From a virus, in the IMG/VR virus record IMGVR_UViG_3300025736_000003: 25,992 nucleotides of DNA; one strand, written 5' to 3'. Shown in pieces: positions 1-25,992 of this stretch (within the stretch, counting starts at the first letter, position 1; each line of letters opens with the position of its first letter). Position numbers and translations under genes: made by a program. The notes under the pieces are model-generated. The model was not told the origin of the DNA and did no database searches. It saw only the letters and a program-made list of their open reading frames with translations.

Positions 1-127
1 TGTGTATAACCCTATATCCTTCCTTCTCAGCATACTTTTTACAATATTCCTTCTGCTGTGCTATATTTTGTTGCTCGTCGTCTGTAGAGATTCTAGTGTA
101 TATTATTGCTTCCTTAACCATAAATTA
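1..127. repeat. Terminal overlap identical to 25866-25992 (circular-assembly signature); contains the first 121 nt of the recombinase gene
   Basis: Base-by-base comparison of the first and last 127 nt shows 100% identity. Minus-strand translation of 121..1 gives MVKEAIIYTRISTDDEQQ..., the same N-terminus as the CDS at 25489..25986. Confidence 0.9.
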
Positions 128-217
128 AATTTCCACCCTTATATTCTACAAATTCATTTCTTTGTATCCAGCTAAGGATTTTATCTTTTGTTAATCTATC
201 CATTCGTCTTAGGTTTG
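119..217. repeat. 99-bp perfect direct repeat, copy 1 (starts at the recombinase start codon and covers its upstream region)
   Basis: The string cataaattaaatttccaccc...cattcgtcttaggtttg at 119-217 is identical to 734-832 (offset 615 bp). Confidence 0.9.
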
Positions 218-1682: not shown

Positions 1683-1975
1683 TTGACCTTGACCTTGACC
1701 ATGACCTTGACCATGACCCTGACCCTGACCCTGACCCTGACCCTGACCATGACCATGACCTTGACCCTGACCTTGACCCTGACCCTGACCATGACCCTGA
1801 CCCTGACCCTGACCCTGACCCTGACCCTGACCCTGACCATGACCCTGACCCTGACCCTGACCATGACCATGACCTTGACCCTGACCTTGACCCTGACCCT
1901 GACCATGACCCTGACCCTGACCCTGACCATGACCCTGACCATGACCTTGACCCTGACCTTGACCCTGACCATGAC
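1683..1975. repeat. Tandem hexanucleotide array (C/T/A)TGACC, about 49 units, with a higher-order duplication
   Basis: Direct reading shows a perfect 6-bp period with variation only at unit position 1. A block of about 65 bp recurs at roughly 1748 and 1863. All frames are open across it, which explains the four ORF-track entries here. Confidence 0.9.
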
Positions 1976-15630: not shown

Positions 15631-16349
15631 TTGAACTCAACACCCCTTTCAATTAACCCAAGCATCTCTTTGCTTAAAACAATCCTTTGAATCATTGCAA
15701 TAATACAGAGAGGGATAATTATAAGATTAGATAACATCATAATAGTAAATATTCCAAATAAGAAACTACCTAACAAACCTGTATCTAAATATGCTATTGC
15801 AATATTAGATGCTATAAAAACTATTGATGTTAATAGAATCCAGACAGACCCCTTCACAACTGGCCTGATATATGCTAATTTTGAAACTTCTAATACAAAT
15901 CCTTGATCGTCACGAGCATCAGTTGGTAAAACGTTTAGAAACATAAATAGTAATCCCATAATAAATATTAAGAAAATAATTAAACCCAAATAAAGAATCG
16001 CAGTTTGGGGCGTAAGAGTATGACCATTATAAGTAACTGGAACGGTATTACATCCGGTATCTTTTTCTACACTATTTCCACAACTATAACAATAAGTAAG
16101 GGTATCTTTTTCTGTTAAATTGCCACCTTCAATTAAGAATGAATAATGAGTCCCATCTTGAGTAGCCTCTATGTTTGAAAATAATAATTCTCCACCATAG
16201 GTAACCCTTGTAAAATTACAACCTGTACAATTATTACATTCTTGATAAATTTCATAATCATCTCCTATTTGTGTAGGTGTTAATTCGACAGCCCCTACAA
16301 AAGTAAAAGCAAACATTAAAAATAATAATAATATTACTTTTTTCCCCAT
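15627..16349 (-). CDS. Membrane protein with Cys-rich ectodomain (about 240 aa)
   Basis: I placed the start at the ATG at 16349 (MGKKVILLLFLMFAFTFVGA, signal-like) because AGGAGG lies 9 nt upstream. A CNNCTGCN...CYSCG...GCN cluster is followed by several TM helices. Confidence 0.5.
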   Translation of the reverse strand: MGKKVILLLFLMFAFTFVGAVELTPTQIGDDYEIYQECNNCTGCNFTRVTYGGELLFSNIEATQDGTHYSFLIEGGNLTEKDTLTYCYSCGNSVEKDTGCNTVPVTYNGHTLTPQTAILYLGLIIFLIFIMGLLFMFLNVLPTDARDDQGFVLEVSKLAYIRPVVKGSVWILLTSIVFIASNIAIAYLDTGLLGSFLFGIFTIMMLSNLIIIPLCIIAMIQRIVLSKEMLGLIERGVEFK

Positions 16350-17131
16350 GGCCAAATACCTCCTGTTTTTTGTTGTGTTTCCATAACTGGATTTCCCCTT
16401 GATTCGGATATGTGTGTATGTTGTCTTAATGTTCTCCTTTCCTCTCCCTTCCATGCCCTTAAATAAGTTGCATGAATAGCATCTTGGATAACCCTAACAG
16501 TTATCATATATCTTTTTAATTTACTTTTTATTATTTGTTGTTTTATTTTTTCTAATTCTTCCTCTACTCTATCTTCAATCTTTGCGAATTTTTCATTAAT
16601 AATTTCATCTCTATTATATTCAATACCAGCAACTTCTTTAGCATAGGCGGATATTTCAGTTTGCCTTTCAATTCTATCCTTAAGTACATCAATACATTGT
16701 TTAACAGTTGGAGAAATAAATACTTTATCATATTCCATAAATATAGTATCAATCAAATCATTAGTAAAATCCCACATCTTCTTTCTTATTGTAGCATCGT
16801 CAAAATTAGATAATAATAAATTTTTGTTCAAATACCAGCAGATAGTATTTCTTATTAAATGTATTCCATACTCAGTAAAAATAACCATATCATCATTAGT
16901 AGGAGCTTTCCATATTAACTTCCCATCTACCCCAGGTTCTAATGAATATCCTTTTAATAAATAATCGATCCTTGATATTTCATCACTTAAATCTAGTTGC
17001 TCTCTAGTTATTGATTTCTCTTCTGGTTGCATAAATGTTTCTTGCTGTGCTCTAACTAAGGCTTGTTGTCCAGCTTCTATCTTTGCTGCATCCAATTCTT
17101 GTTGATATTTATCTATTAAATCTTGATCCAT
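16334..17131 (-). CDS. Hypothetical soluble protein (265 aa)
   Basis: ORF in the operon; acidic and coiled-coil-like at the N-terminus; no motif recognised. Confidence 0.45.
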   Translation of the reverse strand: MDQDLIDKYQQELDAAKIEAGQQALVRAQQETFMQPEEKSITREQLDLSDEISRIDYLLKGYSLEPGVDGKLIWKAPTNDDMVIFTEYGIHLIRNTICWYLNKNLLLSNFDDATIRKKMWDFTNDLIDTIFMEYDKVFISPTVKQCIDVLKDRIERQTEISAYAKEVAGIEYNRDEIINEKFAKIEDRVEEELEKIKQQIIKSKLKRYMITVRVIQDAIHATYLRAWKGEERRTLRQHTHISESRGNPVMETQQKTGGIWPWGKK

Positions 17132-17133
17132 TG

Positions 17134-20100
17134 TTACTTCTTTTTCTTTGTCGATTTAGTTTTCTTCTTCGGTGCTTTTCTTTTTGCTGCTTGGATTTCT
17201 ATAGTTTCTGTTTTCTTACTCAATCTCTTACTTCTTCGTTCAATAAATAATTTTCCTAAAGGTGTGTCTTTCTCTCTAAACCCTTTTGGTGCTTTTGGAG
17301 TTTTGCCAGGTGAACTTAATCTAAATGTTGCAGCTAAAGTTTTTGAGGTTACTCTTTTACCAAATTCGAATGCTTGTCGCTGTGTTCTAAAACTTCCAAC
17401 ATTAAAGAACTCTCCACCTCTACGAATTTGAACACCGAAGCCAACTCTTGGTGTTTTTGTGCTTGGTGTTTTTGGAATAATTGGAGGGAATATTATGTTT
17501 ATCTTTCCTATTATTTTGGGTGGTCTTGGTTGTGGTGGTTGAGGAAATCCACCAAATCCAATTATATTAGGTTGTGCAAATTGTTGCCTTTGGAGTTGTC
17601 GCTGTAATTGTTTCTGATTTAATTTTTGATCTTGTCTCTGAATAACTCTACTTATTACTTTCTCTACAGGTTGTTGAAATTGTTTAGACACTAAACGAGA
17701 ATCAGCCCTAGAACTTATCTTCTTTAATTGAGCAACCTTTACACCAAGTATAGAATTTATATCAAGATTAAATGATTGTGATAACTTAGGCTGAATTATT
17801 TGTATAGGAACATCTGTAACTGATACTTCTTGTTTTCCATTTAATAAAGAAGCTATACCTAACCCACCCAACCCTAAACTATCACGAGTACCGCTAATTT
17901 CTAATCCAGGAATAAATGGAGCAGCCCCACCAGATACAGAAGGTACTTTTAATATTTCTTCTGTTGGTTGTACAAATGTAGTTCTTGGTAAATTCAATTC
18001 CTCTCCAAATGCAAACTTAGATGGAACAGGGATTTGTTCTTGAATTTGTTTTGTTGGTTTTGTCTTACTAAAGAAGTCTGTTATTTGTCCCTTCCTAGCT
18101 GCTATCTTTGATTCCTGTGAACTTGTCAAAGATTTAACAACGTCATCAAACTGTTCCCTTGCTAAAGCCCTATCAATAACATCTACTTTTAACTTCCTAG
18201 CTTTTACAACTTTAGAACCAGCTTTTTGTAATGCCTTTAATTCTTTAGATGCAGGATTAATAAATAGGGTTGTAGTTCTCTGACCTGAAAATGCAGTTAT
18301 ATCTCTTTGTATGTTTGGCGTTATTACTTTTGTTAATAGTTTTTGTTTACCCACTTGTCCGAAAAGTGTTTGGTCGAATGTTTTATCAACTCCAAATTCT
18401 ATTTCTTGTGCAATCCTTCTTCTTATTTGAATATTACCCTTAGATCCAACTCTCTTTATTAATCCCTTTCTTTCACTAACTTGAATAATATCCAAGAAAG
18501 ATTTCTCTTTTTGTATGGTTTGTTTTATTCCTTTAGATATATCTCTACCAACTAATGTTGTTGATTCAAATTCTCCAGTAACAAGTTTTGATCTAAGAGA
18601 TACAGGCTTATCTGATAATATTAAATCTCCAACGTCGTCTGTAAGTTTACTACTCTTCTTAACCTTATCACCACTCTTAACAATTAATTCATTAAATGTT
18701 ACACCTGGTTGTCCGAACTGTTTATCAATCTTTAATTTATCTACTTTTGATTTTAAAAATTTTAATTCTGGCAAATCTCCTTTATTCAAACTTTGCTCAA
18801 AAATAGATTTCCCCTTCTTAAATAATTTAACAGTTCCTTTACCACCTTTAGTTACTTCAGTAATTTTAGTTATATCGCCAAACTTAATTGTTTCTTTTAG
18901 AACTCCATCACCTGCGACCTCCGCAAACCCTTCAAACTTTTGTAGTTTCTTACCAATCTTTCTCAACTCAATAACCTTACCGGTTTGCCTAGCTTCAGGT
19001 ATAAATTGTGTTTCTAATATTCTACCTTTTGTTTTAGAACTAACTATGGATTTAGATAGATCATCCACTTTGGAAATCTCTAATCTTGGTTTAGTTATTT
19101 TTAATTTAGAAGTTTCTTTAGCAATCCTTGTTTCTAATATTAATGCTTTTCTTTCTGGGATAGATACAAATTCTTGTAACTTCTTTACCCTACCTGCCTT
19201 AATAGCCTTAACTATACCTCTAGAACCAACCCCTATAGCAAGTCCAACCTCTAATGGATTTTCAACTGCAAAATCAAAGAACGATTCTGGTCCACCAAAA
19301 GCACCCTTACCAACTTGTGCCTCTAATCCTTTAGCAGCAACCTCACCAACGAATGCTCCAGGCAAAGTAAAACCTAATAGTTCAGTACCAACACGAACAG
19401 CCTTACCACCAAACTCTGCCCTTTTTTCAAACCCAGCTTTCTTTTCTATCCCAGGTATATCTGATTTTAATATATCAGTAAATGATTGTTCAACCTCTCC
19501 TAAGAAAATCTCTTTACCAAATCCAATCAAACCTTCACCTTGAAATTTAGATATTGGAACATCTCTAATCTGACCTGGTAATCCTAACCTAACAGTTGGT
19601 CCACCGCCTAACTGGAATGTAGTAGTGTCTCCTTCTTTAACTTCTGTAACAGTTCCTCCACCTGCTTTAAACTGTGACAACTTTAATGAGAAATCTTCCT
19701 GACTTAATCCTTCTTGTAATACTGCTTCTGTTAATGAACTAAACTCTTTTAATTGTCTATCAATTATTCTCTTAGCTTCTGCTATTTGTCCTATTGGAGT
19801 ATCTCCTAGTGATGGTAATGTTTCTCTTAATGGTACGACAACCTTTTCTCTAAAAGCACCAACACCTGACTCAACACCACTAATGATTGGCTGAACACCA
19901 AACTCACTTATTGGAGTTATAAACTCTTTCTCAACTGCCCTAAATACTTTTGATTCACTAAGTGGTATTACAACTTCTTTTTCAAATGTCTTTGCAATAT
20001 CTTTAGATGCCAACCCAACTTCACCAGCGACAATCTTTCCACCAAAACTTAAGGGAGATAAATTTTGTAACTTACTAACTTCAACATCTCTAATCTGTCC

Positions 20101-20787
20101 AGGTAATCCAAACCTGATAGTTTCTCCTGGTTGTTTAGATTCTATGATTTCTTTTGCTTTCCTTAAATCCTGTGCAACAATACCTATTGGAGTTTCTCCA
20201 AGTGATGGGAGTTTCTCTCTTAATGGAACAACTAATTTTTCTCTGAATGTAGAGACACCCTTCTTAACTACTTGAGTAACATCTACTTGTTTTGGTTTTC
20301 CTGTTTTAATTCTAGCAACCTTACTAACAACTTTCTCAACCACACCTTTTTCCGGTGCAGCTTTTACCTCACCAGTAGTACCTGATTCTGCTCTGGCGGT
20401 TTTACCGGCCTGTGAAACCTCAGCTCTTTCTCTCGCTAAAATAATATTTCTTGAAGATGATTCTGAAGATAAAATTCCTGACTGTTTATTTTGTCTTTGT
20501 AGTTCTTCTATCCTCTGTTGTCTAACTGTAACAAGTTCAGCTCTTTTTTGGTTCTCAGCCTGTACCCTCACAGCTTCTTGTTGTTGTCGTGATGCTTGGC
20601 TTTGCCTATCTAAAGCTTCTTGGGAAATAGATTGTCTTCCCCTAGAACTCCTACCTCTACTTGAGCTACTACCACTTGAAATACCTGATTCTTTTACTGG
20701 GCCTTTATAATTTGGTGCAATTATCTTTAACTTTTTTGCAGCATCTTCTCTACTTTTTTTTAATGTTCTTTCAAACTGACTAGCCAT
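17134..20787 (-). CDS. Giant charged protein with long internal repeats (1217 aa), putative virion/structural or scaffold protein
   Basis: Internal protein repeats FREKLVVPLREKLPSLGETPIG / FREKVVVPLRETLPSLGDTPIG and RFGLPGQIRDVEVSKLQ / RLGLPGQIRDVPISKFQ, mirrored at DNA level (about 20090-20230 versus 19560-19860). Lys/Gln/Glu-rich, no TM segment. Confidence 0.6.
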   Translation of the reverse strand: MASQFERTLKKSREDAAKKLKIIAPNYKGPVKESGISSGSSSSRGRSSRGRQSISQEALDRQSQASRQQQEAVRVQAENQKRAELVTVRQQRIEELQRQNKQSGILSSESSSRNIILARERAEVSQAGKTARAESGTTGEVKAAPEKGVVEKVVSKVARIKTGKPKQVDVTQVVKKGVSTFREKLVVPLREKLPSLGETPIGIVAQDLRKAKEIIESKQPGETIRFGLPGQIRDVEVSKLQNLSPLSFGGKIVAGEVGLASKDIAKTFEKEVVIPLSESKVFRAVEKEFITPISEFGVQPIISGVESGVGAFREKVVVPLRETLPSLGDTPIGQIAEAKRIIDRQLKEFSSLTEAVLQEGLSQEDFSLKLSQFKAGGGTVTEVKEGDTTTFQLGGGPTVRLGLPGQIRDVPISKFQGEGLIGFGKEIFLGEVEQSFTDILKSDIPGIEKKAGFEKRAEFGGKAVRVGTELLGFTLPGAFVGEVAAKGLEAQVGKGAFGGPESFFDFAVENPLEVGLAIGVGSRGIVKAIKAGRVKKLQEFVSIPERKALILETRIAKETSKLKITKPRLEISKVDDLSKSIVSSKTKGRILETQFIPEARQTGKVIELRKIGKKLQKFEGFAEVAGDGVLKETIKFGDITKITEVTKGGKGTVKLFKKGKSIFEQSLNKGDLPELKFLKSKVDKLKIDKQFGQPGVTFNELIVKSGDKVKKSSKLTDDVGDLILSDKPVSLRSKLVTGEFESTTLVGRDISKGIKQTIQKEKSFLDIIQVSERKGLIKRVGSKGNIQIRRRIAQEIEFGVDKTFDQTLFGQVGKQKLLTKVITPNIQRDITAFSGQRTTTLFINPASKELKALQKAGSKVVKARKLKVDVIDRALAREQFDDVVKSLTSSQESKIAARKGQITDFFSKTKPTKQIQEQIPVPSKFAFGEELNLPRTTFVQPTEEILKVPSVSGGAAPFIPGLEISGTRDSLGLGGLGIASLLNGKQEVSVTDVPIQIIQPKLSQSFNLDINSILGVKVAQLKKISSRADSRLVSKQFQQPVEKVISRVIQRQDQKLNQKQLQRQLQRQQFAQPNIIGFGGFPQPPQPRPPKIIGKINIIFPPIIPKTPSTKTPRVGFGVQIRRGGEFFNVGSFRTQRQAFEFGKRVTSKTLAATFRLSSPGKTPKAPKGFREKDTPLGKLFIERRSKRLSKKTETIEIQAAKRKAPKKKTKSTKKKK

Positions 20788-21137
20788 CAATAAACTCTAA
20801 CTAAAAATGTTTTCCCATAATCTTTCGTAACCCACGTTCTGGATTCTATTAAAGAATAAATGTTATCACCATCTTTTAATTTAATTCCTGTATCAATATC
20901 ATTTTTTTGTGGTTGTCTTGAAAAAGTATTTGGTGCTAATCCTAACTTAATCAAACCCACATAATTATTATTATCACCAATATCAATCTTTATATTATCA
21001 AAATCAACAACATCTTTATTATGCTCAACAGCACCATAGATTCCTACAAAAGAACCAATTAATAATACAGATAAGATAGCCGCCACCGAGTATAAAACTT
21101 TAGGGTTGTTTAATAATTGTTTTACTTCTTTATCCAT
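20787..21137 (-). CDS. Small membrane-anchored protein (about 116 aa)
   Basis: I placed the start at the ATG at 21137 (MDKEVKQLLNNPKVLYSVAAILSVLLIGSFVGIYGA, with an N-terminal TM or signal anchor). The track start at 21158 is a GTG lying inside the upstream repeats. Confidence 0.45.
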   Translation of the reverse strand: MDKEVKQLLNNPKVLYSVAAILSVLLIGSFVGIYGAVEHNKDVVDFDNIKIDIGDNNNYVGLIKLGLAPNTFSRQPQKNDIDTGIKLKDGDNIYSLIESRTWVTKDYGKTFLVRVY

Positions 21138-21139
21138 TT

Positions 21140-21175
21140 GCGTTACAGCGTTACGCACTTGCGTTACAGCGTTAC
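21140..21175. promoter_or_regulatory. Four GCGTTAC heptamers (two 15-bp direct repeats) immediately upstream of the ATG at 21137: candidate operator
   Basis: gcgttacagcgttac at 21140-21154 and again at 21161-21175, lying between a TATA-like AT box and the start codon. Confidence 0.45.
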
Positions 21176-21350: not shown

Positions 21351-21406
21351 ATCTTAATTAGCAAAGCAAAGTTTAAATACTTACTTACTTACTAATTAAT
21401 GTAAAG

Positions 21407-22989: not shown

Positions 22990-23304
22990 ATGAGAAACAA
23001 TAAGAAAGGACAGAGTGCTAATATTGGTGCAATGATAGGAGGTATTATAGGTTTGATATTTCTAGTTGTTGTAGGATTTGTATCTTTAGATATTTTGACT
23101 GGTGCTGGATTGCTAACAAGTGATTCTGCATTTGATAATGCTACAGATAGATTAGTTGGTAATCTGACGGCTGGTGTAGACAAGGTATCTGTAAAGATTC
23201 CAATAATGTTTACTATCACTGTAGCTGTTCTATTACTTGGATTGATTGTATTCCTTGTCATCAGGGCAAGACAAGCACAGCAAGTTCAAGGCGGAACTAT
23301 TTAA
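22990..23304 (+). CDS. Small hydrophobic two-helix protein (104 aa), candidate major virion/membrane structural protein
   Basis: Canonical AGGAGG 8 nt upstream of the ATG, preceded by TATA-like boxes. Two hydrophobic segments (IGAMIGGIIGLIFLVVVGFV and IMFTITVAVLLLGLIVFLVI). Confidence 0.5.
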   Translation: MRNNKKGQSANIGAMIGGIIGLIFLVVVGFVSLDILTGAGLLTSDSAFDNATDRLVGNLTAGVDKVSVKIPIMFTITVAVLLLGLIVFLVIRARQAQQVQGGTI

Positions 23305-24936: not shown

Positions 24937-24956
24937 AATTATTAGTAAGTTAGTTA

Positions 24957-25088
24957 CTATTTAAACTTTGTGTTATGTAGTTTTTTATCGAGTGCATTCT
25001 TTAATATTTTAGTTGATATAAAATAAATTAATATTTTTAAAGAGATAACCACTGCTGCTGCTAAAAATATTTTTATCCAAAAATTCAT
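24957..25088 (-). CDS. Tiny membrane protein (43 aa)
   Basis: Manual translation MNFWIKIFLAAAVVISLKILIYFISTKILKNALDKKLHNTKFK; ATGA overlap with the upstream ORF. Confidence 0.3.
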   Translation of the reverse strand: MNFWIKIFLAAAVVISLKILIYFISTKILKNALDKKLHNTKFK

Positions 25089-25488: not shown

Positions 25489-25986
25489 CTAAATCTTCTT
25501 ATTTCTTCCAACCGCACCTTTCTTCCGGCCCTTATATTTCCCTTCAGCTTTTGCCCTAGCTATACCAACTGCTCTCTTTATATTAAGATTATCAATATAA
25601 AAAGCATTCATAGCCATTTTAATTCTAAAAGTGAACTTCCCCATAGGATTAACTAAATCAACCATCTCAGATAAAGATTTAATAATAATATTATTTTTAA
25701 TAACAAAACGTTCAAACCAAACGCTATCATAAAAATCTCTGCAAATCCTATCAACATCCTGAACAATTAAATGTACTGTTGGGTTCTCCTCTAAAAACTT
25801 TAACATCCTTTTACCGCCGCTTCGTTCACAAACATTTATCTTACCACTAATCTTATCTCCAATGGTGTGTATAACCCTATATCCTTCCTTCTCAGCATAC
25901 TTTTTACAATATTCCTTCTGCTGTGCTATATTTTGTTGCTCGTCGTCTGTAGAGATTCTAGTGTATATTATTGCTTCCTTAACCAT
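25489..25986 (-). CDS. Small serine recombinase (resolvase/invertase catalytic domain), 165 aa, no obvious C-terminal HTH
   Basis: N-terminal YTRISTDDEQ motif with Arg10/Ser12 arranged as in resolvase/invertase active sites, and a DRICRD motif around residue 80. The protein stops at ...KGRKKGAVGRNKKI, where the HTH domain of typical resolvases would start. Confidence 0.75.
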   Translation of the reverse strand: MVKEAIIYTRISTDDEQQNIAQQKEYCKKYAEKEGYRVIHTIGDKISGKINVCERSGGKRMLKFLEENPTVHLIVQDVDRICRDFYDSVWFERFVIKNNIIIKSLSEMVDLVNPMGKFTFRIKMAMNAFYIDNLNIKRAVGIARAKAEGKYKGRKKGAVGRNKKI

Positions 25987-25992
25987 AAATTA
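25866..25992. repeat. Terminal overlap, second copy (identical to 1-127)
   Basis: Identical 127-mer at both window ends, implying a unit length of 25,865 bp. Confidence 0.9.

What the first reader, a model, noticed from the sequence alone, without database searches (positions are those of the whole stretch)
17134..20787. 1217-aa charged protein with long internal repeats
This is the largest gene. It contains at least two copies of a repeat of about 125 aa, visible at both protein and DNA level, with a Ser/Arg-rich N-terminus and a poly-Lys C-terminus. It could be a length-determining scaffold, a nucleoprotein or a matrix protein. I do not call it a tape measure because no tail genes accompany it.
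Basis: seen in the sequence. Interest (0 to 1): 0.45.

Follow-up and report, generated by a model that had tools for sequence, protein, structure and literature searches.

The report
Modular basic protein, putative archaeal virus
The largest gene of this 25.9-kb circular, probably archaeal, virus genome encodes a real, very basic 1217-residue protein with a true internal duplication. It belongs to a large, completely unannotated family defined by a conserved C-terminal domain. It is most likely an internal virion protein that holds the viral DNA, but that function is inferred, not shown.

Summary
The gene is 17134-20787 (-), 1217 aa, and the largest ORF. It has an S/R-rich N-terminus, a poly-Lys tail and a net charge of +87. 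Two repeat copies (aa 174-268 and 305-443) score 181 against 36±6.5 for shuffles and are also visible in the DNA. A 17-aa unit is nested inside.

The window is a complete circular genome of about 25.9 kb. It has no tailed-virus hallmark genes, carries archaeal-type promoter motifs and encodes many membrane proteins.

The gene always sits in a conserved morphogenesis module: ATPase | small membrane protein → big protein → 265-aa protein → … → adhesin.

AlphaFold2 gives a confident ~300-aa β-meander domain and a small α/β C-terminal domain, neither with a known fold relative.

Close relatives keep the N- and C-terminal "bookends" but have unrelated middles. One subfamily carries a NUDIX domain there.

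Best reading (confidence 0.35): an internal virion tether or cargo protein that binds DNA through its basic C-terminus. Ruler, pure nucleoprotein and matrix roles remain open. It is not a tape measure protein by membership.

The parts
17134..20787 (-). Whole CDS: 1217 aa, 133 kDa, pI 10.1, net charge +87. It has no Cys, His or Trp, one Met (the initiator) and one Tyr.
20251..20634 (-). Conserved N-terminal 'bookend' (aa ~52-179), a Q/R/E-rich predicted coil. It is shared at 37-58% identity with relatives whose middle parts are unrelated. aa 1-149 were not modelled.
19984..20268 (-). Long repeat, copy 1 (aa 174-268): VVxPL - PSLGETP - helix - GLPGQIRD hairpin - helix.
19876..19983 (-). Inter-copy segment (aa 269-304) with two 17-aa 'KEVVIPLSE'-type units. 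Up to 7 tandem copies occur in homologue P0006.
19459..19875 (-). Long repeat, copy 2 (aa 305-443), including an insertion of about 48 aa (aa ~349-396, window 19600-19743) that is absent from homologues.
19153..19458 (-). Gly-rich amphipathic helices (aa 444-545). Maximum 19-aa hydropathy is 1.23, below transmembrane grade. pLDDT 60-75.
18259..19152 (-). β-meander domain (aa 546-843): 18 strands of 3 or more residues by DSSP, with a first hairpin of 29 + 35 residues. pLDDT is mostly about 90 (10-residue block means 78-96, falling to 69-75 at the C-terminal end). It has no structural relative.
18076..18258 (-). Long single helix (aa 844-904).
17440..18075 (-). Low-confidence linker (aa 905-1116) with a Q-rich helix (aa 1054-1071) and a Pro-rich stretch.
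17176..17439 (-). Family-defining C-terminal α/β domain (aa 1117-1204, ββ-α-β-ββ-α, pI 11.6). Consensus: F.V.VRR.GKF..IG...A...G...TLAATFK..G....P.GF..K...G.LFIEKR..RLS..GE..EIQ.AK.
17137..17175 (-). Poly-Lys tail (aa 1205-1217, 8 Lys in 13 residues). A K/R tail follows the domain in nearly all relatives.
20787..21158 (-). Upstream partner gene, translationally coupled (TGATG). It encodes a small protein with one N-terminal membrane anchor. An equivalent 65-126 aa anchor protein precedes the big gene in all 9 loci checked.
16334..17131 (-). Downstream partner gene, starting 2 nt after the stop. It encodes a conserved soluble 265-aa protein (28-72% identity in 10 IMG/VR contigs). The big gene lies directly upstream, or with one small ORF between, in nearly all of those examined.

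Best explanation
Proposal: the protein is an internal virion 'tether/cargo' protein of an uncultivated, probably archaeal and probably spindle-shaped or otherwise membrane-rich, virus.

Proposed mechanism:
1. It is made in the cytoplasm from the morphogenesis operon, together with a small membrane-anchored protein and a soluble 265-aa protein.
2. Its conserved, very basic C-terminal α/β domain and Lys tail bind the AT-rich viral dsDNA, or the inner face of the particle.
3. Its conserved N-terminal coil docks onto another particle component.
4. The interchangeable middle is carried inside the particle as spacer or cargo and probably enters the cell with the DNA. In this protein the middle holds the duplicated helical repeats, Gly-rich helices and a β-meander domain. 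In one other subfamily it holds a NUDIX hydrolase.

Shown: gene reality, the repeat, the charge distribution, synteny, the bookend architecture, the family size and the lack of any known relative.

Inferred: virion location, DNA binding, docking and delivery.
For: Position and coupling:
- The gene lies in a conserved module, ATPase | small anchor protein → big protein → 265-aa protein → membrane proteins → ConA-like anchored adhesin. This order recurs in L001, L005, L006 and L010-L016.
- It is translationally coupled to its neighbours.
- A small N-terminally anchored protein lies upstream in 9 of 9 loci.

Internal location:
- There is no transmembrane segment or signal peptide; maximum hydropathy is 1.23.

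Charge:
- Net charge is +87. The basic parts are the N-terminus (pI 10.6), the β domain (+27), the C-terminal domain (pI 11.6) and the Lys tail. The repeat region is acidic (pI 5.5).

Family definition:
- The profile search found 956 clusters at E<1e-3. Most of the 150 listed matches cover only the extreme C-terminus of a 650-1500 aa protein.
- A domain HMM found the C-terminal domain in 123 of 161 sampled sequences, the β domain in 43 and the repeat in 22.

Module swapping:
- L005's neighbouring genes are 58-72% identical to the window's. Its big protein shares only aa 81-161 and 1092-1189 with the window's.
- P0036 and P0102 show the same pattern.
- P0068 has a NUDIX domain at aa 549-623 (35 bits; Pfam's curated gathering score for the family is 21) and sits after a small anchor protein like the others.

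Structure:
- The C-terminal domain folds confidently (pLDDT 86.5), as does the β domain (pLDDT mostly about 90).
Against: - No experimental or homology evidence places the protein in a particle.
- A basic tail could bind acidic lipids or RNA instead of DNA.
- At +87 per 133 kDa it cannot neutralise a 25.9-kb genome at a reasonable copy number (own arithmetic). Any DNA binding would therefore be local.
- The virus type is itself inferred. The candidate capsid protein and the ATPase have no detectable relatives among known viruses.
- Delivery into the cell is pure analogy.
Confidence: 0.35

Rival explanations
1. Ruler or assembly scaffold that works like a tape measure. The protein spans an internal dimension of the particle or its tail-like end with its two conserved ends fixed. 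The number of repeats sets a length.
For: - It is the largest gene in the structural module.
- Both ends are conserved and the middle varies in length.
- The 17-aa unit varies from 1 to 8 copies and the 131-aa unit from 1 to 2 copies among relatives.
- Gly-rich amphipathic segments occur here and in L005 and L006.
- Some phage tape measures also carry enzyme domains (own knowledge); compare the NUDIX domain in P0068.
Against: - No tape-measure family hit in Pfam, PHROGs or NCBIfam for this protein, or in Pfam for 53 relatives.
- No tail genes.
- About 300 aa form a compact β domain rather than an extended coiled coil.
- The middles of close relatives are unrelated in sequence, not merely longer or shorter.
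- Protein length (641-1217 aa) shows no trend with contig length (22-29 kb).
Confidence: 0.15
2. Genome-condensing nucleoprotein. Many copies coat or compact the dsDNA, and the protein has no other role.
For: - Net charge +87, a Lys tail, and S/TPK-like motifs (SPGKTPKAPKG, KTPSTKTPR) in an AT-rich genome.
- Lack of Cys and Trp with only one Tyr, as in some nucleoid proteins (own knowledge).
Against: - Neutralising 51.7 k phosphate charges would need about 600 copies, or 80 MDa of protein for 17 MDa of DNA (own arithmetic).
- Known virion DNA-binding proteins are small.
- The acidic repeat region, the large β domain and the NUDIX-bearing relatives do not fit a simple coat.
- Rapid module swapping is unusual for a nucleoprotein.
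Confidence: 0.15
3. Matrix or tegument-like linker. The basic ends bind the inner face of the lipid or capsid layer, through the small anchored protein or acidic head groups, and organise budding.
For: - Constant pairing and translational coupling with a small membrane-anchored protein.
- Many membrane proteins in the module.
- The neighbouring ATPase has no transmembrane segment, as in extrusion-type assembly of spindle viruses.
Against: - 133 kDa is far larger than known matrix proteins (own knowledge).
- No lipid-binding or amphipathic membrane segment of transmembrane grade.
- Nothing distinguishes lipid binding from DNA binding with the data available.
Confidence: 0.12
4. Non-structural protein expressed from the same operon. 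Examples would be an anti-defence or host-takeover factor, or a polyprotein precursor cut into several products.
For: - Module swapping and an embedded NUDIX domain resemble fast-evolving host-interaction proteins.
- Long low-confidence linkers separate well-folded domains.
Against: - The position inside the morphogenesis operon is fixed and translationally coupled in every related contig.
- No protease gene was recognised in the window products tested.
- The universally conserved terminal domain with its basic tail suggests a common physical anchor.
Confidence: 0.1

Closest known systems
Tail tape measure proteins of tailed phages and archaeal tailed viruses (Caudoviricetes)
   Same: Largest gene of the structural region; basic; internal repeats with variable copy number; Gly-rich amphipathic stretches; conserved ends with a variable middle; occasional embedded enzyme domain in relatives.
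   Different: No sequence match to any tape-measure family. No tail, chaperone or baseplate genes. A ~300-aa β-meander domain replaces a continuous coiled coil. The middles of close relatives are non-homologous.
Phage internal or ejection proteins and MuF-type polymorphic virion proteins (T7 gp14-16, P22 gp7/16/20, MuF-toxin fusions). Comparison from own knowledge.
   Same: Encoded in the morphogenesis region; soluble and internal; a conserved anchoring module joined to variable or enzymatic modules. This is the logic proposed for delivery with the DNA.
   Different: No sequence or fold similarity was found. Here the anchor is C-terminal and basic. Presence in the virion and ejection are untested.
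Small virion DNA-binding proteins of archaeal spindle viruses (for example SSV1 VP2). Comparison from own knowledge.
   Same: Basic protein encoded beside capsid genes of a putative spindle-type virus, with presumed DNA contact.
   Different: About 15 times larger, multidomain, and with no detectable homology (no hit in 50,697 phage and archaeal-virus records).
Conserved unknown morphogenesis proteins of metagenomic spindle-virus groups: wyrdviruses (bioRxiv 10.1101/2021.07.29.453957) and Nipumfusiviridae (PMC10866085)
   Same: Genomes with the same kind of layout: a small two-helix capsid protein with glycosylation sequons in the turn, an ATPase without a transmembrane segment, a large adhesin, a block of unknown conserved genes between them, and interchangeable replication modules. 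The Nipumfusiviridae paper reports proteins of more than 500 residues with no similarity to known tail proteins.
   Different: No shared contig identifiers and no sequence link could be established. Whether those viruses have this C-terminal domain was not tested.

Membership tests
Phage tail tape measure protein | Sequence match to a tape-measure family (Pfam, PHROGs or NCBIfam models) | tested here: not met
   No family hit at E≤0.1 for the window protein in Pfam, PHROGs or NCBIfam. Among 53 relatives only one Pfam hit, to NUDIX.
Phage tail tape measure protein | Lies within a tail module (tail tube, frameshifted chaperone, distal tail or baseplate genes) of a genome with an HK97-type capsid, a portal and a terminase | tested here: not met
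   None of these families was detected: the ten largest products of the module were tested against Pfam and PHROGs, ten further products against Pfam only. Small ORFs were not tested. Neighbours are membrane proteins, a ConA-like adhesin and a small P-loop ATPase.
Phage tail tape measure protein | Mostly extended α-helical coiled coil | tested here: not met
   AlphaFold2 puts helices only in aa 170-545 and 848-904. aa 546-843 is an all-β domain with pLDDT mostly about 90.
Phage tail tape measure protein | Protein length sets tail length | not testable with these tools
   No particles or images are available. Protein length shows no trend with contig length.
Spindle-shaped archaeal viruses (context of the gene) | Capsid protein of about 80-100 aa with two hydrophobic helices | tested here: inconclusive
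   The 104-aa product of 22990-23304 has two hydrophobic segments and NAT/NLT sequons in the turn. It has no hit in Pfam, NCBIfam, PDB sequences or phage records.
Spindle-shaped archaeal viruses (context of the gene) | Morphogenesis ATPase without a transmembrane domain, plus a large terminal adhesin | tested here: inconclusive
   A P-loop ATPase is present (GNGKST, LDEGDD) but only weak hits were found (PHROG 38691, E 6e-5). An 837-aa Laminin_G_3 protein with C-terminal membrane segments is present.
Virion DNA-binding or nucleoproteins | Recognised DNA-binding fold or family | tested here: not met
Virion DNA-binding or nucleoproteins | Strong positive charge suited to nucleic-acid contact | tested here: met
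   Net charge +87; C-terminal domain pI 11.6; Lys tail.
Phage internal / ejection / polymorphic virion proteins | Conserved incorporation module joined to variable or enzymatic modules | tested here: met
   Bookend architecture. NUDIX domain in P0068. This is a resemblance in architecture only.
Phage internal / ejection / polymorphic virion proteins | Packaged in the particle and released into the host | not testable with these tools
   Requires proteomics of particles and infection experiments.
Membrane β-barrel / pore former (considered because of Foldseek top hits) | Closed barrel with strictly alternating hydrophobic strands | tested here: not met
   Foldseek hits to porins and aerolysin have E≥0.015 and TM≤0.17. 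The long strands show no two-faced hydropathy.

The most novel reading that the evidence does not exclude
The protein may represent a previously undescribed class of 'bookend' virion proteins in uncultivated archaeal viruses. A universal basic C-terminal domain, and often a conserved N-terminal coil, would load freely exchangeable cargo modules into the particle for delivery with the genome. The cargo would include a new β-meander fold and enzymes such as NUDIX. This would be an archaeal-virus counterpart of phage ejection proteins and polymorphic toxins.
Probability: 0.2. Interest if true: 0.7.

Novelty: new variant of a known kind. Interest (0 to 1): 0.45.

Why it matters
This protein family is large (956 clusters at 50% identity) yet has no annotation, no Pfam or PHROG model and no structural relative. 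It sits at the centre of the morphogenesis module of a widespread group of uncultivated viruses about 22-29 kb in size.

A profile of the C-terminal domain would be a practical marker for finding these viruses, which current tools do not recognise. If the tether/cargo reading is right, it would show how non-tailed archaeal viruses organise their genome and carry it into cells, and that they swap cargo modules as phages do.

The near-total absence of oxidation-prone residues (Cys, His, Met, Trp, Tyr) and of Asn in a 1217-residue protein is itself unusual and unexplained.

Tried and rejected
Searches that found nothing:
- Pfam, PHROGs and NCBIfam on the protein.
- tblastn against 50,697 phage and archaeal-virus records with the big protein, the ATPase and the candidate capsid protein.
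- Profile search against PDB sequences.

Searches that were uninformative:
- Word-indexed homologue search with a C-terminal domain profile: 13 short unnamed hits.
- Broad C-terminal alignments were too divergent for back-translated locus scans.
- A 150-sequence global alignment (A5) misaligned, so it was replaced by A6.
- My guess at capsid-protein orthologues in L010-L016 was wrong.

Host:
- Species-genome scans gave no hit with the C-terminal domain.
- With the 265-aa protein they gave one 2.5-kb contig binned in a Ca. Omnitrophota MAG. That is too weak to name a host.
- NCBI labels one subfamily 'Candidatus Woesearchaeota archaeon', which is only a hint.

Other negative results:
- Link to Nipumfusiviridae: their UViG identifiers are absent from my hits.
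- Porin-like barrel reading: rejected.
- Genome-length ruler: no trend seen.
Full report
**Observation**

The ORF 17134..20790 (-) is the longest in the window. Translation from the ATG at 20787 gives 1217 aa. That ATG overlaps the stop codon of the upstream gene (TGATG), and the next gene starts 2 nt after the stop.

A local alignment of aa 150-300 against aa 300-470 pairs aa 174-268 with aa 305-443. It scores 181, against 35.8 ± 6.5 (maximum 63) for 300 shuffles. At DNA level two blocks survive: 65 nt at 81.5% identity and 40 nt at 87.5%. The second block is also family D4.

The period is 131 aa. Copy 2 holds an insertion of about 48 aa that the homologues lack. A 17-aa unit around KE[KN]VVxPLSE is nested inside. 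It occurs four times in this protein, and homologue P0006 has seven consecutive copies at 17-aa spacing (eight motif matches in all).

The long duplication is shared by homologues of 38-44% identity. In P0003 the two copies are almost identical to each other. That points to concerted evolution or strong constraint (inference).

The protein is 133 kDa, pI 10.1, net charge +87. It contains no Cys, His or Trp, one Met (the initiator) and one Tyr. Asn is 1.6%, against 7.8% in the other window proteins.

**Genomic setting**

Bases 1-127 equal 25866-25992, so the window is a circular assembly of about 25,865 bp.

Recognisable genes:
- a D5/DUF5906 primase-helicase, a C5-methyltransferase and a serine recombinase;
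- a Laminin_G_3 (ConA-like) 837-aa protein with C-terminal membrane segments, and a β-helix protein.

No capsid, portal, terminase or tail family of tailed viruses was detected among the larger products tested.

The first genes of operons have AAAGTTTAAATA 27-35 nt upstream of the ATG and no Shine-Dalgarno motif. Internal genes have GGAGGT. I read this as archaeal BRE/TATA promoters with leaderless mRNAs (inference).

A 104-aa product (22990-23304) has two hydrophobic helices and NAT/NLT sequons in the turn. This matches published descriptions of capsid proteins of metagenomic spindle-shaped viruses (PMC10866085; bioRxiv 10.1101/2021.07.29.453957). No sequence link to them could be shown. The virus type is therefore an inference.

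**Relatives and synteny**

The word-indexed search found only six relatives, none named.

An exhaustive profile search found 956 clusters at E<1e-3, 334 at E<1e-10 and 35 at E<1e-30. Most of the 150 listed matches cover only profile positions about 950-1198, at the extreme C-terminus of proteins of 650-1500 aa. This C-terminal domain is followed by a K/R tail in almost all of them.

Domain HMMs on 161 sampled sequences found the C-terminal domain in 123, the β domain in 43 and the repeat region in 22.

Contigs of relatives (L001, L005, L006, L010-L016; 22-29 kb) keep the same order: [~140-166 aa ← ATPase ←] [→ small protein → big protein (641-1217 aa) → 265-aa protein → membrane proteins → adhesin (up to 1687 aa) → ~143 aa → ~110 aa]. 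The gene just upstream encodes a 65-126 aa protein with one N-terminal membrane anchor in all nine loci checked.

**Bookend architecture**

In L005 the flanking genes are 58-72% identical to the window's. The big protein there (967 aa) shares only aa 81-161 (50%) and aa 1092-1189 (55%) with the window's, and the middle is unrelated. P0036 and P0102 behave the same way.

P0068 carries a NUDIX domain in its middle, scoring 35 bits; Pfam's curated gathering score for the family is 21. It is also preceded by a small anchor protein. NCBI copies from that cluster are labelled Candidatus Woesearchaeota archaeon.

**Structure**

AlphaFold2 on aa 150-1217 with 44 sequences gave mean pLDDT 66.5 and pTM 0.44. 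By region:

| Region (aa) | Prediction | pLDDT (10-residue block means) |
|---|---|---|
| 170-443 (repeats) | two copies of helix-helix-short hairpin (GLPGQIRD)-helix | about 45-79 |
| 444-545 | Gly-rich helices | 60-75 |
| 546-843 | all-β meander, first hairpin of 29 + 35 residues | mostly about 90 (78-96, falling to 69-75 at the end) |
| 848-904 | one long helix | not evaluated separately |
| 905-1116 | largely low confidence | below 50 over most of the segment |
| 1117-1204 | small ββ-α-β-ββ-α domain | about 80-86 |

The C-terminal domain alone, modelled with 74 sequences, reached pLDDT 86.5.

Fold comparisons found nothing significant:
- Foldseek/PDB: best E 0.015, TM ≤ 0.17.

The long strands are not two-faced in hydropathy, so a membrane barrel is unlikely. 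No 19-aa window reaches transmembrane grade.

**Interpretation**

Shown:
- a real, conserved gene with a genuine nested repeat;
- a fixed place in a morphogenesis-type operon;
- a soluble, very basic product;
- a family defined by the terminal basic domain;
- middles that are exchanged between close relatives;
- no known relative by sequence or fold.

Inferred: the protein is packaged inside the particle, where its C-terminal domain and Lys tail contact the DNA (or the inner surface) and its N-terminal coil contacts another component. The middle would act as spacer or cargo. I give this tether/cargo reading a confidence of 0.35.

Rivals:
- A tape-measure-like ruler (0.15) shares many traits, but it fails every membership test that could be run, and the middles are non-homologous rather than length variants.
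- A pure nucleoprotein (0.15) fits the charge but not the stoichiometry. About 600 copies, or 80 MDa, would be needed to neutralise the genome (own arithmetic).
- A matrix-type linker (0.12) fits the constant pairing with an anchored small protein.
- A non-structural or polyprotein role (0.10) cannot be excluded.

**Comparison and novelty**

The closest analogues in logic are phage tape measures and internal or ejection proteins. Membership in any known family is not supported. The family is unannotated and structurally unmatched, but its kind (a large modular protein of a virion module) is familiar. I therefore rate it a new variant of a known kind, with moderate interest (0.45).

Noticed in passing
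window 1-127 and 25866-25992: Identical 127-nt ends, so the window is a complete circular assembly of about 25,865 bp.
   Followed up: yes
window 119-217 and 734-832: A perfect 99-nt direct repeat with copies 615 nt apart, next to the serine recombinase gene (25489-25986, minus strand). It could be an attachment- or resolution-type site, or an assembly artefact.
   Followed up: no
window 1684-1975: Hexanucleotide array TGACCC x48.7 with a local GC spike of 45%. It is open in several frames and would encode (GQ/GH)n on the minus strand.
   Followed up: no
window 21367-21396 and 24941-24970: A 30-nt inverted pair (90% complementary) containing AAAGTTTAAATA, 27-35 nt upstream of start codons that lack a Shine-Dalgarno motif. 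It looks like a shared archaeal BRE/TATA promoter with leaderless transcripts.
   Followed up: partly
window 21130-21175: A 21-nt tandem repeat (x2.2) at the 5' end of the structural operon that contains the big gene. It may be a regulator binding site.
   Followed up: no
window 22990-23304 (+): A 104-aa protein with two hydrophobic helices, NAT and NLT sequons in the turn and an N-terminal KKGQSA motif. It is a candidate spindle-virus-type capsid protein. L005 has a 70%-identical copy, but no database hit was found.
   Followed up: partly
window 17134-20787 (-): The protein lacks Cys, His and Trp, has only the initiator Met and one Tyr, and has Asn at 1.6% against 7.8% in the other window proteins. 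P0002-P0004 share this bias; distant relatives show it less. It is unexplained.
   Followed up: partly
P0068 / L034 10001-13501: A relative with the same C-terminal domain carries a NUDIX hydrolase domain at aa 549-623. NCBI copies are labelled Candidatus Woesearchaeota archaeon. Its contig also encodes a DUF5906 helicase and a C5 methylase, like the window.
   Followed up: partly
window 16334-17131 (-) and L007: The conserved 265-aa partner protein (motifs LLSNF and RAWKGEER) has its only species-genome hit on a 2.5-kb contig binned in a Candidatus Omnitrophota (bacterial) MAG. This is probably a mis-binned viral fragment.
   Followed up: no
L004 (IMGVR_UViG_3300005935_003927): An IMG/VR contig from a sample other than those of the related contigs (L001, L002, L005, L006) is about 100% identical to the window over 13 kb. 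The same virus genotype therefore also appears as a separate IMG/VR record; the window's own sample identifier was not reported.
   Followed up: no
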